From IMG/VR virus record IMGVR_UViG_3300029509_000119, positions 63,909-127,908 of that record: DNA of 64,000 bases. The stretch is one strand, 5' to 3'. The stretch comes from a virus (Duplodnaviria > Heunggongvirae > Uroviricota > Caudoviricetes). The notes below the pieces were generated by a model, which ran no database searches, was not told where the DNA came from, and worked only from the letters and a program-made list of their open reading frames with translations. This document shows positions 1 through 17,455 of this stretch, piece after piece. Both the position numbers and the translations under genes were made by a program. How positions within the stretch are numbered: position 1 is the first letter of the stretch; each line of letters begins with the position of its first letter.

Positions 1-428
1 TGCCGGGGTGGTCATGCACGTCGGTATCCCCGTAGTCCGCCTCCTTGTCCGAAACGGCGGGACTGGCGGAGATTTCGTCATCCGGTTCGGCGAGAATGCC
101 CGAGATTTCGTCCCATGCGAACGGGAACAGTTTCCCCCGATGGCGCAGGTCGTCCAGTTCCCTGACGAGGATTTCACGCAGTCGGGGGCTGTCCGTCCCA
201 AGGTACGCGGATTCGACGGTTCCGGAATCGGCGTTGAGGTCTATATGGTTGGTCAGGAGGGCTTCTTCGGTGTCTTCGTCTATGACGAGGAGTCCTTCGT
301 CCTCAAGCTCCCGTCCTGCTCGCTCAAGCATTTCGGGGGTGTTGTCTCGGGAGTATGCGGAGATTTTCCGGAACGTCCAGTCGCAGACGCCGAGGGCGTT
401 GGTTTTCGGGTGTATTTGGAGTGTCATC
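1..428 (-). CDS. hypothetical protein, partial (C-terminal part lies before window start)
   Basis: Reverse-complement of the listed + ORF 8..445 in the same codon register gives a normal-composition protein (MTLQIHPKTNALGVCDWTFRKISAYSRDNTPEMLERAGRELEDEGLLVIDEDTEEALL...). ATG at 428..426 and no stop before position 1. The + ORF itself is G/V/F-rich and antisense-like. Confidence 0.45.
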
Positions 429-566
429 CAGAGGTGCTGTCCTAGGACGCTCAGATTGGTGAAGCGTCTGTCTAAGAGGATTTTCTGGTCGATGGTCTTT
501 CTCAAATTTTTCCTTTTGGTCTGGCCTGTGCAGTGGTTTCGTTGTTGTGTGTGGACGTTTTTATTT

Positions 567-592
567 TAGTCATACTGGACATACTCACAAAA
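567..592 (+). promoter_or_regulatory. variant copy of conserved promoter/leader motif (tagtCATACTGGAcATactCACAaaa)
   Basis: Matches the 26-nt consensus found more than 20 times in the window. An inverted partial copy (gtgtggacg = rc of cgtccacac) lies at 549..557. A weaker TGtCATACT element lies at 705..715. Sits upstream of the HTH gene at 813. Confidence 0.35.
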
Positions 593-812
593 TTGGGAGT
601 GTGTCCCGGTTCCATGCGTCGGCACGTGAATCGCTTTGCGGAGCCTGCTTGTTGCGGTCGGTCAGGGCTTGTTTCCCATGTCGTTCGGTTTGCATCCCTC
701 TCTCGTTTGTCATACTAAACAAGTGTTTGTATTTACAGACAATAGCATATAAAAATACACAGTCAAATCTAAAACAAAGCGTTTCGCGCCAAAAACCAGC
801 TATCATAAAAAT

Positions 813-1184
813 ATGGGAAAAAGAAAAAACCAAACCAGTGAGTTCAACCGCCGAATCAACCAACGCATCCTAGCGGAAGCCGGAATCCGACGACTCTCCG
901 CACGGGACATCGCACGGCAACTCGGCAAAAGCCCCAGCTACGTCACCACACGATACAACGAAACCGTCGAATGGCTCCCCGCCGACATCGAAGCACTCGC
1001 CCACGCATGGGACATGGAGCCAGAGGAGCTAATCGCTGGACAAAACGGCTACCAGACAAAACCCTCGACCGTGGAACAACAGCTGCAAGACGTACTACGC
1101 AGAATCAACACGGGAGACCTCACCTTGGCCGCGAACCACGACCCGAACAAACAGGCGGAAGCGGAAAGCGAGGACGATTGCTGA
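813..1184 (+). CDS. XRE-family helix-turn-helix transcriptional regulator (ImmR-like)
   Basis: ATG at 813. 'LSARDIARQLGKSPSYVTTRYN' is a typical HTH_XRE motif. Immediately upstream of an ImmA-like peptidase gene in the canonical order. Confidence 0.75.
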   Translation: MGKRKNQTSEFNRRINQRILAEAGIRRLSARDIARQLGKSPSYVTTRYNETVEWLPADIEALAHAWDMEPEELIAGQNGYQTKPSTVEQQLQDVLRRINTGDLTLAANHDPNKQAEAESEDDC

Positions 1185-1228
1185 ACCATCCCCCATTGGA
1201 CGGCAGAAACGTCACACTCGACAGACGT

Positions 1229-1705
1229 ATGAGCTACGAGTGCATGCGACGCGCCGTGGAACTCACCCGACCGGCACCACACATATTCGAAGAGGAACTG
1301 CCCGAAAACATCAACGGCGTATACGACGAGTTGACGCACATCATCATCATCGACCCACGGCTGAACGAACGGCAAAAACGATGCACGCTGGCCCACGAAC
1401 TGCTCCACTGGACGCATGGGGACGCCCGTTGCCAGAGCCAATACGACGACAAGGCCGAAATTCATGTGCGCAAGGAGACCGCGACACTGCTCATCAATCC
1501 GTTCGACTACATACAGTCCGAACGAGTGTACGAGGGTGAAGCGTTCCTCGTGGCCGTCGATTTGAACGTGACGGTCGGAGTGTTGGAGGACTACAGGTCG
1601 ATTCTGGAAGACGCTCCCACATTGGCGGTCGAACCGAAGGGTTGTCCTCAATCCAGTTTTTCAGCGAGTCCGACGCTTTCCGCAGCCTTGCGCCTGCACT
1701 CCTGA
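1229..1705 (+). CDS. ImmA/IrrE-family zinc metallopeptidase
   Basis: ATG at 1229 within ORF 971..1705 (the upstream part of that ORF is R-rich junk). HEXXH motif 'AHELLHWTHGD'. ImmA/IrrE-type domain paired with the upstream HTH. Confidence 0.75.
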   Translation: MSYECMRRAVELTRPAPHIFEEELPENINGVYDELTHIIIIDPRLNERQKRCTLAHELLHWTHGDARCQSQYDDKAEIHVRKETATLLINPFDYIQSERVYEGEAFLVAVDLNVTVGVLEDYRSILEDAPTLAVEPKGCPQSSFSASPTLSAALRLHS

Positions 1706-2370
1706 TAGAGCGGGATGATTGCCGTGACGGTCGCCGTGAACTGCTCCCAGTCGGGAGCGTCCTCCGTCTTTCGTCCGGCTGACCCGTCCAGCCATGCGGT
1801 GATTGAGGTCTCGTACTCGTGCTGGCGTTCCCTCAGCTTGATAAGACCATTGTTTTCGGCGGCGGCGATATAGGCGTCCACGAACGTTTCGACGGTTTCG
1901 TTGTCCTCGTTGCCGTGAATCCTCAAGCCGAGAGTATTGGCCAGTCCATCCACTTCCATGCGGAGCGCTTCGGGGATTCTCTGGCATGTCCGCTGGTTTC
2001 GGCGGCTTTTCGCCAATCGCATCGCACGACATGCTTCATCGGCCTTGCTGTCGGAACCATAGCCCATGACCCAGCGGACGGCTTTGATTTGCGCGTTTTC
2101 GTAGATGTTGTAGGCGCGGGTCTTCCCTACCTGCCGTCCGTCCTCATAGTAGGATGCGTAGGCGCTTTGGCGGGTGTGCCAGTCGGCGGGCTTCCGGCTT
2201 CCCGTCACTTGGATGACTGCTTTTCTGTTTTCGTGGGTGTAGGCGTATTTGTGGTGGAACAGTCCGTCGTTGTCGAATCCGTATTCCGTGACGCAGGTGA
2301 GTCCGAAGCCGGTGGTGTCGATGGTTTTCTTGTATTCCGGTGATTTGGGAGTGGTTTTTTCGCCAGACAT
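1648..2370 (-). CDS. hypothetical protein
   Basis: 240-aa ORF of normal composition. Preceded on the minus strand by a conserved promoter copy and a GGAGAG RBS. Its 3' end overlaps the 3' end of the ImmA-like gene convergently by 58 nt. Confidence 0.55.
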   Translation of the reverse strand: MSGEKTTPKSPEYKKTIDTTGFGLTCVTEYGFDNDGLFHHKYAYTHENRKAVIQVTGSRKPADWHTRQSAYASYYEDGRQVGKTRAYNIYENAQIKAVRWVMGYGSDSKADEACRAMRLAKSRRNQRTCQRIPEALRMEVDGLANTLGLRIHGNEDNETVETFVDAYIAAAENNGLIKLRERQHEYETSITAWLDGSAGRKTEDAPDWEQFTATVTAIIPLYQECRRKAAESVGLAEKLD

Positions 2371-2391
2371 TTTCTCTCCGTGACTTTCATT

Positions 2392-2418
2392 TTTTGTGTG
2401 AACAATCCCATTATAGTT
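2392..2418 (-). promoter_or_regulatory. copy of conserved extended -10 promoter/leader motif (minus strand)
   Basis: Reverse complement reads ggaaCTATAATGGGATTGTTCACACAAAAAatg, directly upstream of CDS 1648..2370. Confidence 0.5.
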
Positions 2419-2487
2419 CCTGACTTAGGAAACCACCGACACAAAAACAAAAAGGGCGGCAAAAAGCCGCCCAAAACCAAGAAAACG

Positions 2488-2700
2488 TCAGATGTCCACA
2501 ACCGCGAGAACCGCGACGACAGTCAGAATGACCACCGCCCATCTCAGGTTCCTGCGACTGCACAACTCCCCTAGTCTCGTATCACTATCCAACAGGTCTT
2601 CCACTGCGGACACGAGGAACATGAGCGCCAATATGATAGCTCCCACAGCCAATGCGATAAGCACATTCTGTTGCGATAATAGCGACAGCATTTTTTCCAA
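2488..2700 (-). CDS. small membrane protein
   Basis: 70 aa with two hydrophobic helices (LIALAVGAIILALMFLVSAV / WAVVILTVVAVLAVV). 4 nt downstream of the MTase gene, same strand. Confidence 0.45.
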   Translation of the reverse strand: MEKMLSLLSQQNVLIALAVGAIILALMFLVSAVEDLLDSDTRLGELCSRRNLRWAVVILTVVAVLAVVDI

Positions 2701-2704
2701 TCTC

Positions 2705-3661
2705 CTATACGAACGCGGGCTGATTCAGACGGTCTCGCAGACTCAATTCCAAATATTGTTCGTTTAAATCGACGCCGACATACCTACATCCCAGCATCGC
2801 AGCCGCCAACCCGGTGGTGCCGGAACCGTTGAACGGGTCGAGCGTCACGCCACCCGGCTTACAACCGGCCTGAATGCATGTGAGGGGAATATCCACCGGG
2901 AAAGCCGCAAAATGCGCTCCCGCATACGGGCGGGTCGGCAGCATCCACACGTCGCGTAGGTTTCGTCTGCCGTCCGATGCCACGTATTCCCTACGGTCTC
3001 TTCCCAAATCCTCGCGGACGCCACCATATGCGCTTTTGTTGCCGAACGTATGCCGGTGGGCTAAATCCTCGATGGTTTTCTCCGACTGCCGTTGTCTTAC
3101 GGACTGGTAGTCGTAATAGTATTTTTCGGTTTTGGAGAATAGGAAAATATGCTCGTAGCTTTTGCTTGGACGGTCTTTCACGCTTTCCGGCATGGGGTTC
3201 GTCTTCCCCCAAATGATATCCGAGCGCAATATCCAACCGTCATCCTGCAAGGCGAACGCCACTCTCCACGGGATGCCGAGCAGGTTCTTCGCCGGACGGT
3301 CTGGACGTTTCCTGCCGTTCGGTTTCTGCACATGTCCGTGCAATCCGATGCTGTTCTCCGACCCGTCGCCGCCGTCCCACAGGTTCGGCGTGGAGTACGT
3401 GTCTCCCAAGTTCAGCCAGAATGTGCCGTCATCGGCTAGGATTCGCCTGCATTCGCGGAATACTTTGCTGAGGTCTTCCACATAGTCGCCGGGTGTGGGT
3501 TCGCGTCCGATTTCCAGTTCGGAATCCGTGTATTGGCGCAACCCGTAGTACGGCGGACTGGTGACGATGCAATCGACTGTCCCGTCGGGCAAATCGGAAA
3601 GCACGGACGACGCGTCGCCCAGATAGAGCGTCAGCGTGTCGTCTTGGAACCAAGGCTTCAC
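2705..3661 (-). CDS. DNA methyltransferase, N6-adenine/N4-cytosine beta-class (orphan, no cognate endonuclease seen)
   Basis: Motif IV 'TSPPYYGLRQY' near the N-terminus and motif I 'DPFNGSGTTG' near the C-terminus, the beta-class order. Start overlaps the upstream gene stop (ATGA). Confidence 0.8.
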   Translation of the reverse strand: MKPWFQDDTLTLYLGDASSVLSDLPDGTVDCIVTSPPYYGLRQYTDSELEIGREPTPGDYVEDLSKVFRECRRILADDGTFWLNLGDTYSTPNLWDGGDGSENSIGLHGHVQKPNGRKRPDRPAKNLLGIPWRVAFALQDDGWILRSDIIWGKTNPMPESVKDRPSKSYEHIFLFSKTEKYYYDYQSVRQRQSEKTIEDLAHRHTFGNKSAYGGVREDLGRDRREYVASDGRRNLRDVWMLPTRPYAGAHFAAFPVDIPLTCIQAGCKPGGVTLDPFNGSGTTGLAAAMLGCRYVGVDLNEQYLELSLRDRLNQPAFV

Positions 3662-4101
3662 GCCGTTTGCTCCAGTCGTTCCAATAGTTCCCGTCCCGCA
3701 GGGAGCGGAGTCAGAGCGCCTGTTGCGATGTCGAGGTGAACCAGCTTGTCGTTCAGCAGTTCGACGGCGGCGTTTTCGAAACCGGCCTTGTATGCGTTGG
3801 CCGTTCCCTGTCCGGCTTGGCGGAGCAATGTTTCGCTGTTGCGCTCGTATAGTCGGATTGGACGGTCTCCCTCGCCTTGGGCGAGCGTGGATACGAGGCG
3901 CATGCCATCCTTGGTGAGGGACGGGGCTGATTGTCCGTTACGTCGGATGAGTCCGGCATCCAGCAGTCGTCTGCCGATGTTGCTTTTGAGGATGTCGGCG
4001 GTCAACCGTCCTTTTTCGACGCCGTACAGGATTCTGGTCTCGCCTTCGCTGATACCGGCCATGAGGACGCGGAAACGTTGGGTGGAGGATTGTTCGTCCA
4101 A
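3658..4101 (-). CDS. hypothetical protein
   Basis: 147-aa ORF, translationally coupled to the MTase gene by a 4-nt overlap. Normal amino-acid composition. Confidence 0.5.
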   Translation of the reverse strand: MDEQSSTQRFRVLMAGISEGETRILYGVEKGRLTADILKSNIGRRLLDAGLIRRNGQSAPSLTKDGMRLVSTLAQGEGDRPIRLYERNSETLLRQAGQGTANAYKAGFENAAVELLNDKLVHLDIATGALTPLPAGRELLERLEQTA

Positions 4102-4138
4102 TGCTGTTCCTTTCGGAGGTTTATGTTTTTTCTAAGTC

Positions 4139-4456
4139 TCAGAGGATGGTGACGGGAGTGTCGTTCAGGCAGTCCCAGTATTCGATTCGAGTGACGGGCG
4201 ATAGTGCCTTGAACGTTTTGACGATGCCTTCATGCATGGTTTTGGCTTGCCAGTATTCCTCACTGGACGATTCTGGATTGTCCATGACCTTGGCGGAGTA
4301 TTCTTCCATTTCCAACAGGTCGAGCCTACGGAGTCGGGCGGAACCGTTCTCGTCCAGTCCGATGTTCTCCGCCAACCACTCGCGGAGCATCCAACAATCG
4401 TTGACGAACAGGAGGATTCGTCCGCTTCTGCCGTCCCATAGCATCTGATAGTTCAC
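4139..4456 (-). CDS. hypothetical protein
   Basis: 105-aa ORF. Its start overlaps the stop of the upstream gene (4453/4456). Confidence 0.5.
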   Translation of the reverse strand: MNYQMLWDGRSGRILLFVNDCWMLREWLAENIGLDENGSARLRRLDLLEMEEYSAKVMDNPESSSEEYWQAKTMHEGIVKTFKALSPVTRIEYWDCLNDTPVTIL

Positions 4457-5184
4457 AGGACTCCGCCATCCTCGTAGCCGACCGTGTATTTTCCTGTAGT
4501 GCCGTGCTGCCCGCAGTTAATCTGCAATCCATCCAAAATGACCATGCGATGCGGGGAAAGTCGCACGTCCTCGCGCATATCCTCCAAACGCATGCCGTCG
4601 TTCAGTTTTCGCAAGGTCTGCCAGTAGGCTTCGTCCAACTGCCGCCAGTATTTCAAATGGGAGTCCTTCATTTGACGGAAAAGCAGGAACGCATGCACGT
4701 ATTGCCCCGTCCAATCCACGTCGTGCATGAGCCGTTCGAGCCGGTTCAACTGCACGGTGACGTCCTCCGGCGCGTGCGATTGGAACAACGTCCAGTATTC
4801 GTTCAACGCGTCCCGCAATTCCTGCTGCCGCATGGCACGAATGGGGGTTCCTCTGAACTGCGGACTGTTGGCAAGCCACACGGCCAAATCCCATGTTTCA
4901 TCCGCGTTCGCGTCGATATTCGGGTACGCGCAGTCGCGGAGGGTTGCCCAACTGTTGCACGCTTTGACGAATCCACGTATTCCCGCAACGGCGTTCAGGC
5001 AGGACAGGAGAAGGAACACGATTCTCCACACTCCGGCGAACGTGTTCGAATACGCGAGGAGCCATCCCGCGACGAACATGACTAAAACGTATACGACGCA
5101 TTGCGGCAGCACTCCCCTGCGGAAGATGGTCTTGAGCACGTCCTGACGGTTCCCGTTGGAGGCCAGAATGCTTCTTTCTGCCAT
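4453..5184 (-). CDS. membrane protein (two N-terminal TM helices, C-terminal soluble domain)
   Basis: ORF 4453..5721 trimmed to the internal ATG 'MAERSILAS...' because the first 179 aa are R/P-rich frame noise. TM segments VVYVLVMFVAGWLLAY and IVFLLLSCLNAVAGI. Confidence 0.5.
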   Translation of the reverse strand: MAERSILASNGNRQDVLKTIFRRGVLPQCVVYVLVMFVAGWLLAYSNTFAGVWRIVFLLLSCLNAVAGIRGFVKACNSWATLRDCAYPNIDANADETWDLAVWLANSPQFRGTPIRAMRQQELRDALNEYWTLFQSHAPEDVTVQLNRLERLMHDVDWTGQYVHAFLLFRQMKDSHLKYWRQLDEAYWQTLRKLNDGMRLEDMREDVRLSPHRMVILDGLQINCGQHGTTGKYTVGYEDGGVL

Positions 5185-5198
5185 ATCGTTCTGGTTGT

Positions 5199-5540
5199 TC
5201 AAGAGGTTAGGGCTTTCGACTCTCTGAGATATTCTTCCGGCTTGAATCGGCTGTTGACTCTGATGACCCAACCGGTGTCGCTGGTTCCGGCTATCTGGTA
5301 GCGTTCGCGCTTGCGTATGAGAAGCGGACGTAGATAGTTGTTGAGTCGGAGCTGTCCTACGGTGGGTGGGTCTCCCAGAAGCGTGGGGACGCGTTGGATG
5401 CCTTCGGCGGTGTCGAAGTAGAGAAGGATTGGCGTCTCGTCCTTGCAGGAGTCGAGGAATCCTCCTATGGTGTCGAGGTCTCGGCGTGGGCGGGAGCGTT
5501 GTTGGGGTTGACTGCCCGCATTGCCTGTTTCGATGGTCAA
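5199..5540 (-). CDS. hypothetical protein
   Basis: 113-aa ORF with a conserved promoter copy just upstream on the minus strand. Confidence 0.45.
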   Translation of the reverse strand: MTIETGNAGSQPQQRSRPRRDLDTIGGFLDSCKDETPILLYFDTAEGIQRVPTLLGDPPTVGQLRLNNYLRPLLIRKRERYQIAGTSDTGWVIRVNSRFKPEEYLRESKALTS

Positions 5541-5557
5541 GAAGAAACCTTCCTTGT

Positions 5558-5583
5558 TTGCGGCTGGTTCCAGTATAACGCAG
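5558..5583 (-). promoter_or_regulatory. copy of conserved promoter/leader motif (minus strand)
   Basis: Reverse complement is tgcGTTATACTGGAACCAGCCGCAAA, upstream of CDS 5199..5540. Confidence 0.4.
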
Positions 5584-5621
5584 TATTTTTAAAACAAGGA
5601 AGGTTTCGGAAAAAATATTCC

Positions 5622-5993
5622 TCAGCCGAGCTTGGATTCGGAATTGTCCATTGGTTGGGTGAGCGGCCTGCCGTCCGCGACCATCTGCTCGATGTCCTCG
5701 TAGTCGTCGCACGCCGCCCACAGCCCGAGGTCAGGGCTGAGGTGGTACATGGTTCCCGTCTTCGCGCCTTCGGCGATGTAGAATCCATGACTGCAAGTGT
5801 CGAGGATGTTGGTCGGCTGGGGGTCTTGCTCGTAATCGTCGAGGTTCCATGGGTCGCCTTCGGGGAGGAGCACGTAGTCCCCGACTCCTTCGCGCACGTC
5901 CCGCAGTCGCCGGTCGTATTCGTCTTGGAGGTCTTGCTCGCGGTCGAGCATGAGGTTGATTTGGTAGTCGATGCTGTTGAAGTAGTCGCTCAT
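5622..5993 (-). CDS. hypothetical acidic protein
   Basis: ORF 5622..6116 trimmed to 'MSDYFNSIDYQ...' because the upstream part is read-through of the promoter motif (MLYWKRS). D/E-rich. Confidence 0.5.
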   Translation of the reverse strand: MSDYFNSIDYQINLMLDREQDLQDEYDRRLRDVREGVGDYVLLPEGDPWNLDDYEQDPQPTNILDTCSHGFYIAEGAKTGTMYHLSPDLGLWAACDDYEDIEQMVADGRPLTQPMDNSESKLG

Positions 5994-6022
5994 TTTCGTC
6001 TCCTTGGTTTTGACTTTTCCTT

Positions 6023-6052
6023 TTTTGCGTGAACGTTTCCAGTATAGCATCA
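6023..6052 (-). promoter_or_regulatory. copy of conserved promoter/leader motif (minus strand)
   Basis: Reverse complement is tgaTGCTATACTGGAAACGTTCACGCAAAA, upstream of CDS 5622..5993. Confidence 0.5.
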
Positions 6053-6339
6053 TCTTCTGTTTTAGAAAACCGGCAACAGAGAAAGAAAAGGTTCCGCCGC
6101 CCCAAAATCCACACACGGGCGACGGAACCGCAAAAACACTCCCGCTAAGGAGTTCCAGCCGAGACCGGGGAAGAAACCAAGATGGCGGAAAACGGCCAAA
6201 AAACCGGTCTCAATCAACACATTAACCGACCTCGAACATTCGTCTGGCGAGGAACCGGAAAAACAGGAAAAAATTTTCTTTACCGTTTTTTTGTCGAGGA
6301 GGCCGCGTGAAGTCCGGCACCTGAGAATTGCCAACAAAA

Positions 6340-7365
6340 TCAGTTTCCGTCCGCAGCGCACTGTGCGAGGAACGATTTCGTCTCCGCCTTCTCCCACCCG
6401 CTCATGGACAGCTTGTACTTGTCTTTGATGTACACGCGTTTCGCCATGTACGAGCATTGGTACGTCTTGTTGGATGGAAGCCACACGCTTGGAGTGCCGT
6501 CCTGCCATTTGGTTTTGGAGCCGTTCAACGCCTCGTCCCTCACGAGGTTCACGCCCTGCTGTTTGACGTTGTTCGCCTCGCCTTCGGACGCGACGAGCAC
6601 TTCCGGGTCGTTCGCGTAGGCGATGCGGTCGCCTTTGCGTGAGTCCTTCCATAGGCCGCTGGCCCAAGCGTCGTTGACGGCGACCACGTGGTCGATTTGG
6701 ACGGCCATGCTGTCTCCGCCGGTCTTCCTTTGCTTGCCGTTGACGGTCTCGTAGGTGTCGCGTTGGAATCTGATGGTCTTGCCGGTGTACGGGTCTTGCA
6801 GGGTTCCGGTGAGTACCTTGCAGTTCTTGTCCATGGTCACGTCGGACATGTCGCGTTTGAGGATGTAGTCTCTCGTGGTGCCGTAGCCGCATAGTTGGCT
6901 GCTGTTCTGCCATGTGCCGAAGTCTTTTTTGCGGTCGTAGCCTTTGGTGTGAGGGGCGGCGGTTTCGATGTTGGAGAGCCTGTCGAGCGCCTGTTGCGTG
7001 GTGATGGGGCTTAAAGCGCCTTCAGGGACTCCTGTAGAGGCTGTTTGTTCCTGACTTGAGGAATTGTCCCCGTTTGGCGTCTGCGTCGATTCTGAGGGCG
7101 TTTCCGTGGCTTCTGGAGTGTTTGTCCGCGTATTGGGGTCGGACGGTTTCGAGGAAGGCTCCTTCAACCCCAGTTTCACATCAGGTTTGACCTTGGAATC
7201 CTCCCCCGGCATCAACTGGGACAAGTCATTGATTTCCGGCAGTCCGAAAATCTGCGACATGGGCTTCCACAATCCCAAGTTCACGATGAGCACCATGGCC
7301 GTCAACACGACCAGAATGCCGCCAATCAACGAACCGGCGGACATCCCGCCCTTCTTCCTAGCCAT
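6340..7365 (-). CDS. membrane-anchored DUF1524-type (His-Me finger/HNH-like) nuclease-like protein, extracytoplasmic
   Basis: Start at 'MARKKGGMSAGSLIGGILVVLTAMVLIVNLG' (N-terminal TM anchor). Low-complexity S/T/P/E linker. C-terminal 'IDHVVAVNDAWASG ... NNVKQQGVNLVRDEALN' resembles the DUF1524/GmrSD C-terminal His-Me motif. Confidence 0.55.
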   Translation of the reverse strand: MARKKGGMSAGSLIGGILVVLTAMVLIVNLGLWKPMSQIFGLPEINDLSQLMPGEDSKVKPDVKLGLKEPSSKPSDPNTRTNTPEATETPSESTQTPNGDNSSSQEQTASTGVPEGALSPITTQQALDRLSNIETAAPHTKGYDRKKDFGTWQNSSQLCGYGTTRDYILKRDMSDVTMDKNCKVLTGTLQDPYTGKTIRFQRDTYETVNGKQRKTGGDSMAVQIDHVVAVNDAWASGLWKDSRKGDRIAYANDPEVLVASEGEANNVKQQGVNLVRDEALNGSKTKWQDGTPSVWLPSNKTYQCSYMAKRVYIKDKYKLSMSGWEKAETKSFLAQCAADGN

Positions 7366-7391
7366 AAGCAACCTCCAAAAAATGTTCCGCT

Positions 7392-7526
7392 TCACAGGTT
7401 CAGGATGACGCTGATGGCAAGGCACACGATGAACGCTATCGCGATAATCGCGCCGGTCAGCGGGCCGTTGCTGTTGATGAACTCGGCGAACTTGTCGCCC
7501 TCATTGGGCTTGTTGCGTCCTGCCAT
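7392..7526 (-). CDS. small single-pass membrane protein
   Basis: 44-aa C-terminal part of ORF 7392..7730 starting at 'MAGRNKPNEGDKFAEF...IIAIAFIVCLAISVILNL'. The upstream part of the ORF is R/P-rich noise. Confidence 0.35.
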   Translation of the reverse strand: MAGRNKPNEGDKFAEFINSNGPLTGAIIAIAFIVCLAISVILNL

Positions 7527-7545
7527 TTTTCTTCTTCCTTTCGGA

Positions 7546-8805
7546 TTAGTCGTTCGGACCCTCATTGGGGTCTCCGGTGACGGAACCATCGTCTGAATTC
7601 TGGGTTGGGCTGTCGCCGTCATCGGATGGCTGGCCGTCGGACGAACCGGAGTCGCCGACACCGTTGGTGGAATCCGACGAACCGGAATCGGACGCCGCAT
7701 CCTCCTCGTCGTCACTGCCGGACGAGCCAATCAGCGAACGGTCGATGGCATTGTTGAACGCCTTCAACGTGGTCAGACTGCCCTCCGCGCCCCAGTCAAC
7801 GATTTTCGCGCTGCCACGGGTCGGATTGTGGATAAGAACCGTGACGCTCGTATCCACGTTGCCCACCGACTTGATGTCCGCGCTTGGATTGTTCGCGGCA
7901 CTCGCGTCAACCTTCTTCTCATAGGGTTTGAACGAGATGCTGACGCTCGCCGCAGCCCATTCGGGATTGTCGGACTTGTTCTTCTTGTCAACGACCTTGC
8001 CGTCCTTGGTGCATTGCACCAGCCATTCGACGGACGAGTTCAGATACGAACCCAAGCTTGCTGGCTGGTACACGTGCTCGCTGTTCGGGTCTCCGACAAG
8101 TACGGTCAACGCGTTGGGGTCTTTGCCGACGTACGCCTTTGCCCACGCGCCGACCACGGTCGTCAGGCTCGTGTTCTGGTCAAGCTGAACGTACCCGTCG
8201 GGACGATACGTGTCGGTGCCGCTGTCCGAAGTGACTGTCTTGGGCAGCACGGTCGGCGTTCCCACCGCAGTAGCCACTCCGTCCGTGACGGCGACAAGCT
8301 GGGTGATGTCCCTCGTGCTTCCGTCCGACTTGTCGGTAAGGGACATCTGATGGCTCCAATATTGGGTGACTTCCCCATCGGAACCGTCCGAAGTGGAAGT
8401 GCCCACTTCAGTGGCACCGTTCCACCACAGGTTCGCATACCCGTATTGGAACGCGCCATTGTCGTCATCCAACCAACCGTATACGGATTGCAACGCGACC
8501 TGCTTGCCGGGCTTGTCGCCGTTAACCTCCTTGAGCTTCGAACTCATATACGAACCCATGTCGGTCAACGTGTTGATTGCACGGACGGAAATCATCGGCG
8601 CGACCAGTCCGGTGCAGACGAACAGGACGATGAGAACCTTCCACTTCCGAGTGTTCTTCAACGCCTTCTTCCAAGCGGTGAGTTCTATTTCGTTCTTGCG
8701 TTCCTTCTCGTCGGCGAACAGGTCGGTCTCATCGTTCGGATTCTGCCACGCCTTCTGCTGTCCTATCGGCTGATTGCCGTTCTTGTCTTTCTTGTTTCCG
8801 AACAC
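7546..8805 (-). CDS. membrane-anchored surface protein with S/D/G-rich acidic tail
   Basis: 419 aa. Cytoplasmic N-terminus, TM 'WKVLIVLFVCTGLVAPMISV', large extracellular domain, low-complexity 'SGSDDEEDAASDSGSSDS...' C-terminus. Confidence 0.55.
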   Translation of the reverse strand: MFGNKKDKNGNQPIGQQKAWQNPNDETDLFADEKERKNEIELTAWKKALKNTRKWKVLIVLFVCTGLVAPMISVRAINTLTDMGSYMSSKLKEVNGDKPGKQVALQSVYGWLDDDNGAFQYGYANLWWNGATEVGTSTSDGSDGEVTQYWSHQMSLTDKSDGSTRDITQLVAVTDGVATAVGTPTVLPKTVTSDSGTDTYRPDGYVQLDQNTSLTTVVGAWAKAYVGKDPNALTVLVGDPNSEHVYQPASLGSYLNSSVEWLVQCTKDGKVVDKKNKSDNPEWAAASVSISFKPYEKKVDASAANNPSADIKSVGNVDTSVTVLIHNPTRGSAKIVDWGAEGSLTTLKAFNNAIDRSLIGSSGSDDEEDAASDSGSSDSTNGVGDSGSSDGQPSDDGDSPTQNSDDGSVTGDPNEGPND

Positions 8806-9039
8806 AGTCCCGCTCCGAATCCGTTTTTCGTCTGACTTGCATCCTCCAGTCTACCGTTCGTCGGAGGTTGCTTTCACCGTCTTCGAGGTTTTCTGAAACG
8901 TGTCTGCCGCCGGTGTCGGCTTCTCTGTTTTTCTTTTTCCGGAACTTTTCTTTTTCTCTCTTCCGTCGAAAGCATTCGGACATGCCTAAACGTTCACGTG
9001 ACCTGATTTTTTCTAAAGCATTGAGGATACCCTTTAAGC

Positions 9040-9200
9040 GGGTTTAGGCCTGCCCAAACGTGGAATCTGAAAAATGGTTTTATTCTGATTTTTTGATTTT
9101 TTGCTTCTTTTTGAAAAACCTGTTTTTTTAAAAAGAAGGGAATACAAGGGTTATTAATATTTTGTAATCTTTTGTATACCTTTTGCAGGTGTCGGAATCC
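9040..9200. other. AT-rich tract, probable DNA-unwinding element of the plasmid origin
   Basis: About 70% A+T in a ~60% G+C background (gattttttgattttttgcttctttttgaaaaacctgtttttttaaaaag). Directly 5' of the iteron array and the rep gene. Confidence 0.4.
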
Positions 9201-9233
9201 CTTATGGGAGTAGGCGTTTCAGGTCGAAAGCGT

Positions 9234-9398
9234 GTCGAAAGTTCCAACTTTCCGTGTCAGAAGTTCCAACTTTCCGTGTCGAAAGTTCCAACTTCTGTGG
9301 CAGAAGTGCCCACTTAGCGTGGCAGAAGTTCCAACTTTCCGTGGCAGAAGTTCCAACTTTTTATGCAGGGCGTGCCAGAATTGCCCACCTATAGCGGC
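9234..9398 (+). repeat. iteron array: six to seven directly abutting 22-bp repeats (AGAAGTTCCAACTTTCCGTGGC)
   Basis: Units at 9234, 9258, 9280, 9302, 9324, 9346 and a degenerate one at 9370. The 22-nt period equals two helical turns. Located between the AT-rich tract and the rep gene. Confidence 0.7.
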
Positions 9399-9539
9399 AC
9401 TTTCTCACGCGTGCCCGAAGAGGTTGACTGCAACAGTGGAGAGGTCGGAAGCTCTAACTAGAATCAGAGAAAAGAAAACCCCGCGCTGCGGAACCAGCCG
9501 GGGTAACGGTAACCATCAACCTTAAGGAACCATGGTCAC

Positions 9540-10409
9540 ATGACCTATGATAGCAAAGACCTCGACAAGTCAAACGCATACCGCTACGCTCCATCCGTGA
9601 TGTCGAAGCTGAGCTTCCTGCCACAGTCGAAACCTGACTCGCCATCCGTAAGGAAGACGAACGGGAACTCGTCAATCACCATTTCGGCCTCCAACGGGGA
9701 ATGGGCTTACGGTGCTGCCCCCAGAATGTTCCTCCTCCACATTCGCTCTCTTATCAAGAACGGGAGCGACTGCGTGGACGCGGAACATCACACCGTCTAC
9801 TTGGATAACACGTACAACTCGTTCTGCAATAGCGTCGGAATTAAATACTCCGGGTCAAACAAGGATAAGGTCATAGAGATGGTCAAGAACCTAGCCACCA
9901 CTTCCATCGTCCTCAAAAACTGGTCAGCGGACAGATTCATAGCCCGCTCGTTTTTCGTCGCAAACACCGTGGCGCTCAACTATGGGACTGACGAAAAAGA
10001 GAAGTCGTTCATAGAGTTCTCTCCTCAAATGTGGGCGCTGCTGACCGAGAACTGCGTGCCACTCAACCCGTCCATCGTCCGCCAGCTGCGCGGCGACGCC
10101 CTCTCGTTGGACGTGTACCAGTGGCTCGCGTTTCGCGCCAACTCCACACGCTATGAGACGCACGTAACATGGGAAGCTCTGTTGATGCAGTTCAAGTATG
10201 ACGGGTATCCGATGCGTGAATTCAAACGCAAGTTCAAGAGGGCGTTGGAGAAGATTCGGCTCGCGTGGCCGGAGCTGAAAGTCGAAATCACGGAAACCGG
10301 CGTCATAGTCCGTCCTAGTCTCCCTTCCATCCAGTCGGCTAACGATGATACCGACACGGACACGGGCGTGGCAGATAATGAAGAGCCGATAAACCCGTTC
10401 ATATCCTGA
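9540..10409 (+). CDS. plasmid replication initiator (iteron-binding Rep)
   Basis: ATG at 9540 with an AAGGAAC RBS. 289 aa with an acidic C-terminal tail. Position immediately downstream of the iterons and the AT-rich element. Family assignment (RepA_N-like) is from memory only. Confidence 0.6.
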   Translation: MTYDSKDLDKSNAYRYAPSVMSKLSFLPQSKPDSPSVRKTNGNSSITISASNGEWAYGAAPRMFLLHIRSLIKNGSDCVDAEHHTVYLDNTYNSFCNSVGIKYSGSNKDKVIEMVKNLATTSIVLKNWSADRFIARSFFVANTVALNYGTDEKEKSFIEFSPQMWALLTENCVPLNPSIVRQLRGDALSLDVYQWLAFRANSTRYETHVTWEALLMQFKYDGYPMREFKRKFKRALEKIRLAWPELKVEITETGVIVRPSLPSIQSANDDTDTDTGVADNEEPINPFIS

Positions 10410-10518
10410 ATGTGTTTAGAGAAACCAATGGGGCGTACGCTCTGTTATGAGTGCCGCCCCATCTGGAAGACTTCGATGAAGTTCTTTTTTGTTCATCCGA
10501 ATGCTAGTATACCGGAAT

Positions 10519-11043
10519 CTAATCCTTCTGCTCGTACTTGTCGATGAGAGACTGGTCGAAGTGTCCCTGCTGGAAGCAGTAGTCCATCGCGGCGTTCAAC
10601 AGGACAGCCTGTTTCGTCCCGTATTCGATGCTTCTCATCTTCCATGCACGCCAGTTCTCGACGGTGACGTTGCTTCCGATTCGTTTCTCTTTCGGCGGCT
10701 GGTGTGTTTCCGGTTGCATGGCGGCGGTTGGTTCCGGTTGGGCTTGGATTACGTTGGCGACGGCTGGCTGCGGTTGTTGTTGAACGGCTTGTGTCGGCTC
10801 CACGTTTTGAGGCATGGATTGTGTGACGACCGGCTGGACGGGCGTCTGCACGGTTGTCGGAATGTTCTGCGATTCCATCGGAGCCTGTGGATGGACCATG
10901 ACCGTCGGCTCCTGCACCGACCGTCCGGACTGTGGTTCCACAATCGGCGCCGATTGTGGAACCTCCGGCGACTCCAATGGACGCATGTCACGCTTGTCCT
11001 GCAAACCCGTGGCGAAAGCGTTGCGTCTGATGTTCTTGACCAT
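10519..11043 (-). CDS. putative centromere-binding partition protein (ParG/ParB-equivalent of a type Ib par locus)
   Basis: Directly downstream of parA on the same strand. Disordered P/Q-rich N-terminus with a folded ~50-aa C-terminus (ENWRAWKMRSIEYGTKQAVLLNAAMDYC). Confidence 0.45.
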   Translation of the reverse strand: MVKNIRRNAFATGLQDKRDMRPLESPEVPQSAPIVEPQSGRSVQEPTVMVHPQAPMESQNIPTTVQTPVQPVVTQSMPQNVEPTQAVQQQPQPAVANVIQAQPEPTAAMQPETHQPPKEKRIGSNVTVENWRAWKMRSIEYGTKQAVLLNAAMDYCFQQGHFDQSLIDKYEQKD

Positions 11044-11071
11044 GATTGTCTACTGCTCCCCTGCTCCCGTT

Positions 11072-11734
11072 TTATTCTTCCACCAGATTGATTGCCGTCA
11101 GATAGTCGATAAGTTCATGCACGACGCTGGAATACTCCTTGTTGTCGATTTCGGTCGTGCCGTACATGTTCTTGACGGCCTCACGTTCCGTGATGACGGT
11201 TTCGAATCGTGCGATGCCTTCCTCGTCGAGTTCGCCGATGCTGTTGCGGGCGAGTTTCGTTCGCGGTTTCACACGGGTCAACAGGACGATGCCGTTTCGT
11301 GCCGCCGCATACGTGCGTCCGGCATGGGTCAAATCGGAGATGGACGGCTGGCATGGGATTATCACCACGTCTCCCGCGTTTATCGCCGCCTGTACGACAC
11401 CGGCGTCGGATGGCGGGGTGTCGATGATGACCCAGCCGGAATATTTTTCACGGATGAGTTCGGGATTGTTGAGGATGGCTTCGTTGGTTTGTATGACGGG
11501 GAAACCCAACTCGTATGGTTCCGCGTCCGGATTGTCCTGCCGACGTCTGCGGTTTTCCTGTTCGACATACATTTCCCACATGGTCGCGCCGCCCGTGTTG
11601 TCGGAATCCAAGACCGTGACTTGTTCGCCGCGCTTGTGCAACAGTTCGGCCAATGCCATTGCCGTAGTGGTTTTGCCTGAACCGCCCTTGATGATGGCGA
11701 CGGTGATGATGACCGTATCGTTTTTGATTCTCAT
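11072..11734 (-). CDS. parA: ParA-family partition ATPase
   Basis: ORF 11072..12061 trimmed to 'MRIKNDTVIITVAIIKGGSGKTTTAMALA' (deviant Walker A KGGSGKTT). 221 aa, small Ib-type ParA. Confidence 0.8.
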   Translation of the reverse strand: MRIKNDTVIITVAIIKGGSGKTTTAMALAELLHKRGEQVTVLDSDNTGGATMWEMYVEQENRRRRQDNPDAEPYELGFPVIQTNEAILNNPELIREKYSGWVIIDTPPSDAGVVQAAINAGDVVIIPCQPSISDLTHAGRTYAAARNGIVLLTRVKPRTKLARNSIGELDEEGIARFETVITEREAVKNMYGTTEIDNKEYSSVVHELIDYLTAINLVEE

Positions 11735-11981
11735 GCCTGTGTTCCTTTTTCGGCTTTCGGTGTGGACGAAACCATAGTGGGGGTATGGATTCGTAATCAA
11801 GGATAACAACGTGGAACAGTCGGCACGCCGAACCATAAAACCATTTCCATCAACGTTCCGACAAAACGGCGAACCGGCATACAGGCTGAACGGCGAAACA
11901 ATGATGGTAAAAGGAAGTAGTAATACGGCAGTCTTCCAATCAGAAAAACGGACACGGCATCCAAAAAAACAGCGACGAAAA

Positions 11982-12335
11982 CTACTCAGTCGCCGTGAAC
12001 ACCAACCGGCGCAAAAACTCCATGAACAGCGAGCCGATATCCGGCAATTGAGCCGCGACATCCTTCATCCACTGACGCACCGGCAATCCCATCACCTCCA
12101 GCACGCCGGTGATAATCCACACGAACAGCAGGAACGCGCAGATGGTCAACGCTGTCATCAACGCGCGAGTGCTTTTCTGCAAGATGGCGAATACGACGCT
12201 GCCAGCGCAAATAATAATCATCAACAGTGTGAGGATTGCGCCAGTCGGCGTGAACACCCATGAGAAGAACACGGTGAGCACGTCGCCCAACGTTCGTCCG
12301 GCGGTGTTGGCGGCTTGGTTTCCTACCTCTTCCAT
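11982..12335 (-). CDS. small polytopic membrane protein (conjugation-associated?)
   Basis: 117 aa with three hydrophobic helices. Lies between the VirB6-like gene and par. Confidence 0.5.
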   Translation of the reverse strand: MEEVGNQAANTAGRTLGDVLTVFFSWVFTPTGAILTLLMIIICAGSVVFAILQKSTRALMTALTICAFLLFVWIITGVLEVMGLPVRQWMKDVAAQLPDIGSLFMEFLRRLVFTATE

Positions 12336-12438
12336 TTTCTAATCTCCTTGACAGTTGGAAGGTTTGCGAAAGGGAAACCGGCGTCGAACGCTGCTGAAGA
12401 TTTTCAAAAAACATTCGACGCCGGATGGTCAAACCGAC

Positions 12439-12545
12439 GTCACTTCATGAACGGCGGCTTGGATGTCGGCTGTCCAAATCCCGTCGATTTCGACGGGATT
12501 AAAAACCAGTCACTTCATGAACGGCGGCTTGGATGTCGGCTGTCC
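12439..12545. repeat. perfect 37-bp direct repeat (12439..12475 and 12509..12545) flanking an 18-nt perfect palindrome (12480..12497)
   Basis: 'gtcacttcatgaacggcggcttggatgtcggctgtcc' occurs twice. The second copy encodes the last 11 codons plus the stop of CDS 12510..16418. 'cccgtcgatttcgacggg' lies between the copies. Confidence 0.6.
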
Positions 12546-16418: not shown

Positions 16419-16837
16419 CGGATTTCCATTTCCTGAAGGTCGATGATGTTTTCCGGCTGGGTGGAATTCGGATAGAAGACCTGTCCTTCAATCTTGCGGC
16501 TCTTCATGTCCTGCAAGGTTCTTTTCCACCGTGTCTGCTGGGTGCGGTCTCGAATGGTTCCCACTGCGAAGAACGGGGCCAACGCGCCGCCCAACAGTAC
16601 GAAGAACGAGCTGAACATGTATCCAAGCAGCGGAGCGAACATGAGGCAGAGCGCCAAGCCCGCCAATGCTCCGACGATGACGGAGAACACGGTTTTGGAA
16701 CGCGCTTCGGTGTTCTTCGTTATCTGGAACGTGTTCTTCCGTTCGATTTCCTCCGGGCCGGACACTTCGGTGATGTCGTCCATCGTCAATCTTGGATGCA
16801 ATGGGCCTTTATATCCTTCGTCTTCCTCGTCGCTCAT
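16415..16837 (-). CDS. small membrane protein (T4SS-associated, VirB3-like?)
   Basis: 140 aa. Acidic N-terminus, then two TM helices (VFSVIVGALAGLALCLMFAPLLGYMFSSFFVLLGGALAPFFAV). Confidence 0.5.
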   Translation of the reverse strand: MSDEEDEGYKGPLHPRLTMDDITEVSGPEEIERKNTFQITKNTEARSKTVFSVIVGALAGLALCLMFAPLLGYMFSSFFVLLGGALAPFFAVGTIRDRTQQTRWKRTLQDMKSRKIEGQVFYPNSTQPENIIDLQEMEIR

Positions 16838-16942
16838 GATTCAACCCTTTTCGTATGCAAAGCTTGTAAAAGAAAACCGGAGTGGGGACAGAATAGGAAA
16901 GGTTCTTTTCATGTATCCACTCCGGCATTACTTCTGCGGACG

Positions 16943-17423: not shown

Positions 17424-17455
17424 TCACTTCAACTTGTCAAGCCTGAATCTGACAG

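What the first reader, a model, noticed from the sequence alone, without database searches (positions are those of the whole stretch)
813..1705. ImmR/ImmA-like HTH-metallopeptidase pair, a candidate master switch for the promoter family
An XRE-family HTH gene is followed 45 nt later by an ImmA/IrrE-type HExxH peptidase gene. This is the arrangement that controls ICEBs1 and many prophages by signal-triggered cleavage of the repressor. The pair is preceded by variant copies of the conserved promoter motif (567..592 and a weaker 705..715). Its 3' end overlaps convergently, by 58 nt, a promoter-motif-driven gene (1648..2370). If the HTH protein binds GGAAT-N-GTTCACAC, one proteolytic event could de-repress every cargo gene at once.
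Basis: partly seen in the sequence, partly recalled or inferred. Interest (0 to 1): 0.6.

Follow-up and report, generated by a model that had tools for sequence, protein, structure and literature searches.

The report
Phage-type repressor–protease switch on Bifidobacterium megaplasmid
This is a real and conserved repressor plus zinc-protease gene pair of the ImmR/ImmA kind, on a relative of the Bifidobacterium megaplasmid pMP7017, but it most likely controls only the neighbouring phage-like replication operon through its own palindromic operator, not the plasmid-wide promoter family.

Summary
The gene pair is real. ORF 813..1184 encodes a 123-aa Cro/C1-type HTH protein. The next ORF encodes an ImmA/IrrE (M78) HExxH peptidase. 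Both are under purifying selection and are adjacent in more than 80 related loci.

Corrections to the finding:
- The peptidase starts at TTG 1178 and overlaps the HTH stop codon. There is no 45-nt gap.
- The 58-nt convergent overlap is a recombination scar from a swapped cargo cassette (1607..3681).
- The site at 565..596 is a genuine weak member of the promoter family. The site at 705..715 is not.

The window is collinear with pMP7017 (25–89 kb). The promoter family was already published for pMP7017 (Dineen 2024), with no regulator identified.

The master-switch idea is not supported:
- The best operator candidate is a unique 18-bp dyad (724..741). It covers the −10/+1 of a conserved leftward σ70 promoter that faces a phage replication-initiator (O-like) operon.
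- The same GTAATTAC-core palindrome lies upstream of homologous HTH genes in prophage lysogeny modules.
- pMP7017 has no motif copy upstream of its pair, and its motif promoters are highly transcribed while the pair is present.

The most likely role is a local phage-type immunity switch. This is a new member of a known kind.

The parts
2..505 (-). 5' part (TTG start at 505) of the divergent gene, cut off by the window edge. It is a phage-type replication-initiator (O-like) protein, 525 aa in relative L003.
   Evidence: blastn of window 91..1606 against L003 9306..10800 gives 81% identity. The L003 protein matches phrog_3171, phrog_8064 and phrog_345, replication initiation/O-like (E=9e-12 to 3e-5). 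The start was mapped through alignment A3.
543..574 (-). Weak promoter-family variant facing the divergent gene: TAAAAT (568→563), 6 nt, then GTCCACAC (556→549).
   Evidence: PWM score is 7.4 bits here and 9.7 bits in L003. The GTCCACAC box is conserved in L003, L007 and the IMG/VR relatives. Function is inferred.
565..596 (+). Weak promoter-family variant pointing towards the HTH gene: CATACT (571..576) followed by GGACATACTCACAAAA.
   Evidence: It scores 13.2 bits, against 0.035 sites of at least 13 bits expected per window. It is conserved 196–231 nt upstream of the ATG in relatives at 11–19 bits, and degenerate in L007. No conserved ORF follows it.
724..741 (.). 18-bp dyad TGTTTGTATTTACAGACA, the candidate operator of the HTH protein.
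   Evidence: It is the only match in the window at up to 3 mismatches. It occurs in 33 related loci in 9 sequence variants, with 5–9 of 9 symmetric pairs, and is a perfect palindrome TGTTCGTAATTACGAACA in L017, L028 and L029. The same core is present twice upstream of homologous HTH genes in prophage-type contigs.
739..766 (-). Conserved leftward σ70 promoter: −35 TTGACT (766→761), 16-nt spacer, extended −10 TGcTATTGT (747→739).
   Evidence: Found by the promoter scan. The −10 is invariant and the spacer length is fixed in 7 lineages. The −35 is the perfect TTGACA in four of them.
801..806 (+). −10 element TATCAT placed 6 nt before the ATG. There is no Shine-Dalgarno sequence, so a leaderless HTH mRNA is predicted.
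   Evidence: The geometry TAnnnT-N6/7-ATG recurs in L003, L007, pMP7017 (TACAAT) and the prophage members L063 (TATAAT) and L059 (TATCAT). Inferred; no transcription start data.
813..1184 (+). HTH repressor gene (123 aa): an N-terminal Cro/C1-type domain (about residues 7–74), helix 86–99, and a disordered tail.
   Evidence: dN/dS is 0.14–0.24.
1113..1151 (+). Codons 101–113 (GDLTLAANHDPNK), the invariant tail motif G-D-x-x-L-A-A-x5-K. It is the candidate site for ImmA docking or cleavage.
   Evidence: G101, A106, A107 and K113 are invariant across plasmid and prophage homologues whose HTH domains are only 17–39% identical (A7). The small Cro-like paralogue in pMP7017 lacks the motif.
1178..1705 (+). 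ImmA-type zinc metallopeptidase gene (175 aa from TTG 1178). It is a single domain with no GAF domain.
   Evidence: dN/dS is 0.27–0.36.
1394..1408 (+). HELLH zinc-binding/catalytic motif (H73, E74, H77).
   Evidence: Read directly from the sequence. These residues are invariant in alignments A1 and A5, as are E94 and D82.
1607..3681 (.). Lineage-specific cargo cassette. It supplies the peptidase's last ~33 codons, the convergent 240-aa gene (1648..2370 −) with its canonical motif promoter (2390..2421 −), a small membrane ORF, and an N6/N4 DNA methyltransferase (2705..3661 −).
   Evidence: Homology breakpoints against L003 and L007. Pfam N6_N4_Mtase at E=1e-50. Motif score 41.9 bits.

Best explanation
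The pair is a phage-derived immunity module on a diverged pMP7017-family Bifidobacterium-type megaplasmid.

- The HTH protein is made from a predicted leaderless mRNA.
- It is proposed to bind, as a dimer, the single 18-bp dyad at 724..741. That dyad covers the −10/+1 of a conserved leftward σ70 promoter.
- Binding would shut off transcription towards the divergent phage-type replication-initiator (O-like) operon.
- The ImmA-type peptidase is translationally coupled to the HTH gene (TTGCTGA overlap).
- On an unknown signal, by analogy DNA damage, ssDNA or RecA, the peptidase would cleave the repressor in or next to its invariant C-terminal GDxxLAA-x5-K region and relieve repression.

Shown here: gene identities, the conserved pairing, purifying selection, the conserved promoter and dyad, and the recurrence of the dyad core with homologous HTH genes in prophages. 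Inferred: DNA binding, cleavage, the signal, and the leaderless start.
For: - The pair is conserved in every megaplasmid-lineage locus and under purifying selection.
- The peptidase is in the M78/ImmA family and has HExxH.
- The HTH is Cro/C1-like.
- The dyad at 724..741 is unique in the window and keeps or improves its symmetry across 9 variants.
- The dyad overlaps a promoter whose −10, spacer length and −35 are conserved in 7 lineages.
- Prophage-type contigs carry a homologous ImmA (about 45% identity) and a homologous HTH (hhalign 92.5%) in a Cro | HTH–ImmA … integrase module, with two GTAATTAC-core palindromes upstream of the HTH gene.
- The recognition-helix residues T46, R47 and N49 are shared by the two lineages that have this core. 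They differ in pMP7017 and L059, whose upstream repeats also differ.
- The divergent gene is a phage replication-initiator homologue.
- The invariant tail motif is absent from the Cro-like paralogue.
Against: - No binding, cleavage or transcript data exist for this element.
- The structure models are of low confidence (pLDDT 56 and 46), and all fold matches have E>0.06.
- Only one dyad copy is present here, whereas prophage relatives have two.
- The dyad could in principle be bound by another protein, for example the initiator.
- The intergenic region also holds two family-like promoters, so wider control is not excluded.
- Known cleavage sites (ImmR F95/M96, CapH F82/R83, DdrO L106/R107) lie after a hydrophobic residue inside a helix, not in an LAA tail. 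The cleavage position is therefore open; L95/R96 is an alternative.
Confidence: 0.6

Rival explanations
1. Master switch. The HTH binds the TSS-proximal box GGAATYGTTCACAC at about 20 promoters. One ImmA cleavage event would then de-repress all motif-driven cargo and establishment genes.
For: - The motif lies at −10 to about +14, a typical operator position, and Dineen et al. propose an unidentified transcription factor for it.
- The HTH is the only regulator identified in the window that also has a pMP7017 orthologue. Not all window ORFs were screened for DNA-binding domains.
- Two weak family-like promoters lie back to back in the pair's control region and are conserved in this lineage.
- Both the pair and the motif family persist in both megaplasmid lineages.
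Against: - The motif has only weak dyad symmetry and does not resemble the conserved dyad. TGTTCACAC differs from the half-site TGTTCGTAA at 3 of 9 positions.
- No motif lies upstream of the pair in pMP7017 or B. longum plasmids; the best match has 12 of 27 mismatches.
- The box upstream of the HTH gene is degenerate in L007 (−2.6 bits).
- The motif promoters are among the most highly transcribed pMP7017 genes in log phase while the pair is present.
- Homologous pairs in prophages have no such promoter family.
- The window covers only about a third of the plasmid, so other regulators (WhiB, DtxR-like and others in pMP7017) remain candidates.
Confidence: 0.12
2. The pair is regulated by the promoter family rather than regulating it. 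The weak family promoter at 565..596 transcribes HTH–ImmA through a ~230-nt leader and runs convergently against the leftward promoter. The local switch would then be tuned by whatever factor controls the family, partly through transcriptional interference.
For: - The 565..596 site is conserved and points towards the HTH gene.
- It faces the conserved leftward promoter about 150 bp away.
- No conserved ORF lies between them.
Against: - The site is weak: CATACT as −10 and 8 of 14 matches in the box.
- It is degenerate in L007 and absent from the pMP7017 lineage.
- A conserved leaderless promoter directly upstream of the ATG is sufficient on its own.
Confidence: 0.15
3. The pair is a stress-sensing regulator of an adjacent defence or cargo gene (CapH/CapP-like), or a toxin–antitoxin-like Xre–COG2856 module, and not a replication or immunity switch.
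For: - There is a weak PADLOC capP hit (E=5e-4).
- CapH/CapP-type pairs regulate many defence operons (bioRxiv 10.1101/2022.04.27.489752).
- Methyltransferase and other cargo genes lie next to the pair.
Against: - The peptidase is 175 aa and lacks the linker and GAF domains of CapP and IrrE.
- The downstream neighbours differ between lineages: a cassette here, a zinc-ribbon protein in pMP7017. The divergent replication-initiator operon is the constant partner.
- No toxin activity is known for this clade.
Confidence: 0.08

Closest known systems
ImmR/ImmA of Bacillus subtilis ICEBs1 (and the φ105 repressor with its ImmA)
   Same: - The gene order is HTH repressor then a short single-domain HExxH metallopeptidase, in one operon.
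- The operon is divergent from the genes it controls.
- The element is mobile.
- The peptidase is about 170 aa with no sensor domain.
   Different: - This element is an actinobacterial megaplasmid, not an integrated ICE.
- The divergent operon starts with a phage O-like replication initiator rather than xis.
- No integrase follows the pair.
- The HTH carries a distinct invariant tail (GDxxLAA-x5-K).
- Sequence similarity is limited to the Pfam family level.
- Cleavage and the triggering signal are untested.
ImmA/IrrE gene and its upstream hypothetical gene in pMP7017 (B7017_RS00140/RS00145) and in B. longum megaplasmids
   Same: - They are orthologous (HTH 31–40% identity, peptidase about 47%) and lie at the syntenic position of a collinear plasmid backbone.
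- The HTH has the same C-terminal tail motif.
- The start geometry is leaderless in the same way.
   Different: - The pMP7017 HTH is 184 aa, with a 55-aa linker insert.
- A separate small Cro-like paralogue lies on the divergent side.
- A 120-nt spacer with its own ribosome-binding site precedes the peptidase gene.
- A zinc-ribbon gene lies downstream.
- The upstream repeats are different (two TGCG-N11-CGCA sites).
- Neither gene is discussed in the pMP7017 papers.
DdrO/IrrE (PprI) of Deinococcus and CapH/CapP of CBASS operons
   Same: - An XRE-type repressor with a C-terminal oligomerisation region is inactivated by an M78 metallopeptidase.
   Different: - IrrE and CapP are three-domain proteins with a GAF domain and are stimulated by ssDNA. 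This peptidase is single-domain.
- The candidate operator here is unique in the window.
- The genes are adjacent here, unlike irrE and ddrO.
The 34-bp promoter motif of pMP7017 (Dineen et al. 2024, PMC10832533)
   Same: The window's family, TGnTATACT-GGAATYGTTCACAC-AAAA, is the homologue of AWAYATGY-TATACT-GAATATGTCCACATAAAAWA. Both are an extended −10 plus a TSS-proximal box, followed by a short leader and a ribosome-binding site.
   Different: The box sequence has diverged. The regulator is unknown in both plasmids. The motif is a feature of the plasmid, not of this gene pair.

Membership tests
ImmA/IrrE metallopeptidase (Pfam PF06114, Peptidase_M78) | Profile match above the curated threshold | tested here: met
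   The score is 30.3 bits against a gathering score of 22. phrog_87 metallo-protease matches at E=1e-15. The family profile hits IrrE structures 8slm and 3dte at E=3e-4 and 7e-4.
ImmA/IrrE metallopeptidase (Pfam PF06114, Peptidase_M78) | HExxH zinc motif plus a downstream glutamate ligand | tested here: inconclusive
   HELLH (H73, E74, H77) is invariant, and the invariant E94 and nearly invariant E100 are candidates for the third ligand. The model is too poor (pLDDT 46) to assign the ligand.
ImmA/IrrE metallopeptidase (Pfam PF06114, Peptidase_M78) | Site-specific cleavage of the partner HTH repressor | not testable with these tools
   This needs co-expression or in-vitro cleavage. The only indirect evidence is the invariant tail motif in all partner HTH proteins.
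ImmR / cI-like XRE repressor | Cro/C1-type HTH domain by curated Pfam models | tested here: not met
   HTH_26 scores 15.2 bits against a cut-off of 22, HTH_31 13.9 against 27, and HTH_24 19.8 against 21.9.
ImmR / cI-like XRE repressor | Cro/C1-type fold by profile and structure-level comparison | tested here: met
   The family profile matches the XRE protein 3bs3 at E=0.004 and hhalign 90.8%. The model has five helices in the right order. The top Foldseek hits are all XRE, cI or DdrO, though E>0.06.
ImmR / cI-like XRE repressor | Repeated or palindromic operator in its own divergent control region | tested here: met
   The conserved 18-bp dyad at 724..741 lies on a conserved promoter, and the same core occurs upstream of homologous prophage HTH genes. 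Binding itself is not tested.
ICEBs1-type immR–immA module | immR then immA co-transcribed, divergent from the controlled operon, on a mobile element | tested here: met
   The genes overlap by 7 nt. The divergent O-like operon is conserved. The megaplasmid context is shown.
IrrE/CapP three-domain sensors | Central HTH-like linker and C-terminal GAF domain (about 240–300 aa) | tested here: not met
   The protein is 175 aa with a single M78 domain.
Regulator of the pMP7017-type promoter motif (hypothetical family) | A motif copy at its own promoter in all lineages that carry both the pair and the motif | tested here: not met
   A weak copy is present in the window lineage (11–19 bits). It is degenerate in L007 (−2.6 bits) and absent in pMP7017 and B. 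longum (12–13 of 27 mismatches).
Regulator of the pMP7017-type promoter motif (hypothetical family) | Direct binding of the HTH to GGAATYGTTCACAC | not testable with these tools
   This needs EMSA, footprinting or ChIP.

The most novel reading that the evidence does not exclude
The HTH could be the missing transcription factor for the published but orphan promoter motif that drives about a quarter of the genes in pMP7017-family megaplasmids. It would bind the asymmetric TSS-proximal box as well as its palindrome, much as the mycobacteriophage L5 repressor binds its 'stoperators' (comparison from my own knowledge, not checked here). ImmA cleavage would then give a plasmid-wide, damage- or transfer-triggered burst of anti-restriction and establishment genes, including ArdC, methyltransferases and SSB.
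Probability: 0.12. Interest if true: 0.7.

Novelty: new member of a known kind. Interest (0 to 1): 0.35.

Why it matters
pMP7017-family megaplasmids are reported in about 10% of sampled gut microbiomes, mostly from infants and mothers (PMC10832533). Their regulation is essentially unknown. This analysis gives a concrete and testable control circuit for one conserved module: an operator, a promoter, a repressor, a protease and a candidate cleavage or degron motif. It links that module to prophage lysogeny switches. It also narrows the search for the regulator of the plasmid-wide promoter family by showing that this HTH is a weak candidate. If the HTH did control the family, it would explain how a quarter of the plasmid's genes are co-regulated.

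Tried and rejected
- Near-identical DNA searches of 500..2500 in the plasmid and phage collections found nothing.
- A single-protein scan of genome contigs found nothing.
- NCBIfam gave no meaningful hit for any gene.
- Rfam found nothing credible in 1..4000.
- The AF2 models were of low confidence and the Foldseek matches were not significant. They are used only as weak, consistent support.
- An HMM search found no HTH paralogue in the window, so this lineage has no Cro-like partner in the 64 kb.
- The direct repeat TTAGTCATACTGGACA / TTTGTCATACTAAACA was rejected as an operator because the second copy is not conserved.
- The small ORFs after the 565 site (601..873 and 614..718) were rejected because that region is variable, with indels, in relatives.
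- Pfam scans of 20 motif-driven or neighbouring ORFs found no alternative DNA-binding regulator in the window. Most of those ORFs have no annotation at all.
- The pMP7017 paper and its supplement do not mention the pair.
Full report
**What is there**

ORF 813..1184 (+) encodes a 123-aa protein. Its Pfam HTH hits fall below the curated cut-offs: HTH_24 at E=6e-4, HTH_26 at 0.026 and HTH_31 at 0.07. Other evidence supports a Cro/C1 (XRE) fold.
- A profile of the protein family matches the XRE-type structure 3bs3 over residues 6–77 (E=0.004; hhalign probability 90.8%).
- PHROG transcriptional regulator and repressor families match at E=1.5e-4 and 1.9e-3.
- A low-confidence AF2 model (pLDDT 56) shows the five helices of a Cro/C1 domain, one further helix at 86–99 and a disordered tail.
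- The top Foldseek hits are all XRE, λ cI or DdrO, but none is significant.

The next ORF is a Peptidase_M78 (ImmA/IrrE) protein. It scores 30.3 bits against a gathering score of 22. It matches phrog_87 at E=1e-15, and its family profile hits IrrE structures. HELLH lies at 1394..1408, and H73, E74, H77, D82 and E94 are invariant. At 175 aa it is the short ImmA type. It lacks the linker and GAF domains of IrrE and CapP (architecture from bioRxiv 10.1101/2022.04.27.489752).

**Corrections to the observation**

The peptidase does not start at ATG 1229. The 17 codons upstream are open and conserved at the protein level (LNHPP..R.V.IDR.M) in homologues down to 44% identity. The start codon is TTG in the window and in L003. 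It is ATG at exactly the same position in L007, and GTG behind a GGAGG site in pMP7017. The genes therefore overlap by 7 nt (TTGCTGA), which implies translational coupling, and there is no 45-nt gap.

The 58-nt convergent overlap with 1648..2370 (−) is real as an ORF overlap. However, homology to relatives L003 and L007 stops at 1606 and resumes at 3682, and the peptidase's last ~20 residues occur only in this sub-lineage. Positions 1607..3681 are a swapped-in cassette. It holds the motif promoter at 2390..2421, the 240-aa gene, a small membrane ORF and an N6/N4 methyltransferase. The overlap is a recombination scar.

**Context**

The window is collinear with pMP7017 of Bifidobacterium breve from about 25 to 89 kb, at 30–67% protein identity. 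pMP7017 and the B. longum megaplasmids carry the orthologous pair at the syntenic position. In RefSeq these are annotated 'hypothetical protein' and 'ImmA/IrrE family metallo-endopeptidase'. IMG/VR holds many 110–217 kb contigs of the window lineage and of a lineage with 70% peptidase identity. In every one, the HTH gene immediately precedes the peptidase gene. Both genes are under purifying selection: dN/dS is 0.14–0.24 for the HTH and 0.27–0.36 for the peptidase.

The constant divergent neighbour is cut off by the window edge at 2..505 (−). It is 489–525 aa in relatives and matches phage replication-initiation/O-like PHROGs at E=9e-12 to 3e-5.

**The promoter family**

The motif is real. A PWM built from 11 canonical copies finds 19 sites of at least 13 bits, against 0.035 expected. 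Its anatomy is an extended −10 (TGnTATACT), then GGAATY, then GTTCACAC and an A-run. A ribosome-binding site and start codon follow 15–45 nt later.

The motif is homologous to the 34-bp motif AWAYATGY-TATACT-GAATATGTCCACATAAAAWA that Dineen et al. (PMC10832533) described at 19 pMP7017 promoters. Those promoters are predicted to drive 56 genes. The motif was discovered among the most highly transcribed genes, and its transcription factor is unknown. That paper and its supplement never mention the HTH/ImmA genes.

It scores 13.2 bits and is conserved 196–231 nt upstream of the ATG in relatives at 11–19 bits. A second weak variant, TAAAAT-N6-GTCCACAC at 543..574, faces the divergent gene. The '705..715' copy scores −17 bits and is not conserved.

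**What the HTH more likely binds**

Phylogenetic footprinting of the 300-bp control region shows a second conserved block at 724..812. This block stays conserved even in L007, where flanking coding DNA is only 69–75% identical. It contains three elements.
- A leftward σ70 promoter. Its extended −10 is invariant (TGcTATTGT, 747→739) and its spacer is fixed at 16 nt. Its −35 is TTGACT here and the perfect TTGACA in four lineages.
- An 18-bp dyad, TGTTTGTATTTACAGACA (724..741), covering that promoter's −10/+1. It is the only such site in the 64 kb. It occurs in 33 related loci in nine variants that keep 5–9 of 9 symmetric pairs. In L017, L028 and L029 it is the perfect palindrome TGTTCGTAATTACGAACA.
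- A −10-like TATCAT 6 nt before the ATG, with no Shine-Dalgarno sequence. This geometry recurs in L003, L007 and pMP7017 and predicts a leaderless mRNA.

**The prophage connection**

Viral contigs of 20–50 kb carry a peptidase about 45% identical to this one. It sits in a textbook lysogeny module: a Cro-like 82-aa HTH on the opposite strand, then a 120-aa HTH, then ImmA, and further on a tyrosine integrase. Their HTH is homologous to the window's over its whole length (hhalign 92.5%). It has the same leaderless geometry.

Immediately upstream lie two palindromes, TAYWCGTAATTACGWAG, 24 bp apart. These have the same GTAATTAC core as the megaplasmid dyad.

The recognition-helix residues T46, R47 and N49 are shared by these two groups. 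They differ in pMP7017 and in L059, whose upstream repeats are also different: two TGCG-N11-CGCA sites and AGTAC repeats respectively. This co-occurrence of HTH clade and palindrome across otherwise unrelated elements is the best available evidence for the operator. It points to a local site, not to the promoter-family motif.

**Substrate motif**

The HTH domains diverge to 17–39% identity. In contrast, the tail G-D-x-x-L-A-A-x5-K (residues 101–113, nt 1113..1151) has G101, A106, A107 and K113 invariant in all plasmid and prophage partners of this ImmA clade. The Cro-like paralogue of pMP7017 lacks the tail. I infer that it is the protease docking or cleavage determinant.

Two cleavage positions are plausible.
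- L95/R96 in the C-terminal helix. This is by analogy with CapH F82/R83 and, from my own knowledge, DdrO L106/R107.
- After LAA107. This would leave a C-terminus like the ssrA tag. The pMP7017 tmRNA tag ends in FTLAA. Cryptic ClpXP degrons exposed by cleavage are known for LexA and RseA (my own knowledge). This is speculation.

**Verdict on the master-switch idea**

For:
- The motif is in an operator-like position.
- Two weak family-like promoters lie in the pair's control region.
- Both the pair and the family persist in both megaplasmid lineages.
- No other regulator with a pMP7017 orthologue was recognised in the window.

Against:
- The conserved, unique dyad is a better operator and does not resemble the motif.
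- pMP7017 and B. longum plasmids have no motif copy upstream of the pair. The best match has 12–13 mismatches of 27.
- L007 has lost most of the box.
- Motif promoters are highly active in pMP7017 while the pair is present.
- Homologous pairs in prophages work without any such family.
- Two thirds of the plasmid, with other regulators, lie outside the window.

I put the master-switch reading at about 0.12 and the local phage-type immunity switch at about 0.6.

**Novelty**

The pair is a new member of a known kind (ImmR/ImmA, DdrO/IrrE, CapH/CapP). The orthologous peptidase in pMP7017 is already annotated as ImmA/IrrE. The following appear not to have been described for these plasmids:
- the operator and promoter architecture;
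- the leaderless and translationally coupled gene organisation;
- the invariant tail motif;
- the prophage ancestry next to an O-like replication operon.

Noticed in passing
window 40317..41171 (+): This ORF is an ArdC-type anti-restriction protein, with an ArdC N-terminal domain (E=8e-13) and a second Peptidase_M78 domain (E=9e-9). It lies in the motif-driven array, directly after the motif promoter at 39958..39989 and its 85-aa ORF. The array looks like a set of establishment/anti-defence genes.
   Followed up: partly
window 1607..3681: This is a cargo cassette absent from relatives L003 and L007. It holds a motif promoter with a 240-aa unknown gene, a small membrane ORF and an N6/N4 DNA methyltransferase. 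The 'motif promoter plus gene' units appear to be exchanged as modules. L007 keeps a fragment of the 240-aa gene, with a motif copy, at L007 11247..11588.
   Followed up: partly
window, whole (e.g. 5552, 31298, 35557, 45857, 47834, 53174, 55180, 55641, 56919, 57526): The promoter family is graded. Besides 11 near-canonical copies there are about 10 weaker ones (9–35 bits) that keep TGnTATAYTGG…CACA. One sits in front of the SPFH/Band_7 gene (31341..32720) and one in front of an RNase_T exonuclease (45891..46493).
   Followed up: partly
window 1..64000 vs pMP7017 25–89 kb: The whole window is collinear with pMP7017: RepA_C, ParA-like, a 1302-aa protein, an 886-aa AAA ATPase, DnaB and a VirB4-like 886-aa ATPase, at 30–67% identity. 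The array genes at 34–42 kb have no pMP7017 homologues. IMG/VR files these 110–217 kb plasmids as viral contigs.
   Followed up: yes
L021 7397..7430 (70% lineage): In this lineage the family-like promoter upstream of the HTH gene is followed directly by a 12-bp-arm inverted repeat (CAAAATTGGGGG / CCTCCAATTTTG). This may be a hairpin or attenuator in the leader. The window itself has a different 10-bp inverted repeat, GGACATACTC…GAGTGTGTCC, at 577..606.
   Followed up: no
L001 5194..5250 (pMP7017) and L002 5190..5250 (B. longum): The control region of the pMP7017-lineage pair carries two 19–20-bp sites with TGCG…CGCA ends. In pMP7017 they form an 18-bp perfect inverted repeat. They flank a −10-like TGTTATAAC/GGTTATAC. 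This operator type differs from the window's dyad.
   Followed up: partly
window 1427..1435 (peptidase residues 84–86): A cysteine 7–8 residues after the second His of HExxH is conserved in the window-type lineages (HGDxC / HGDxxC). In pMP7017 it is replaced (HADDSH). C69, four residues before H73, is invariant. Whether either cysteine acts like the CapP 'cysteine switch' is unknown.
   Followed up: no
L007 4457..4986 (−): In the 76% lineage the divergent operon includes an SSB gene directly behind a motif copy (24.4 bits). This links the promoter family to replication and establishment functions next to the pair.
   Followed up: no
window 50404..52158 (+): A 584-aa pentapeptide-repeat protein (Pfam E=3e-23) is encoded in the distal part of the window. 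Its function here is unknown.
   Followed up: no
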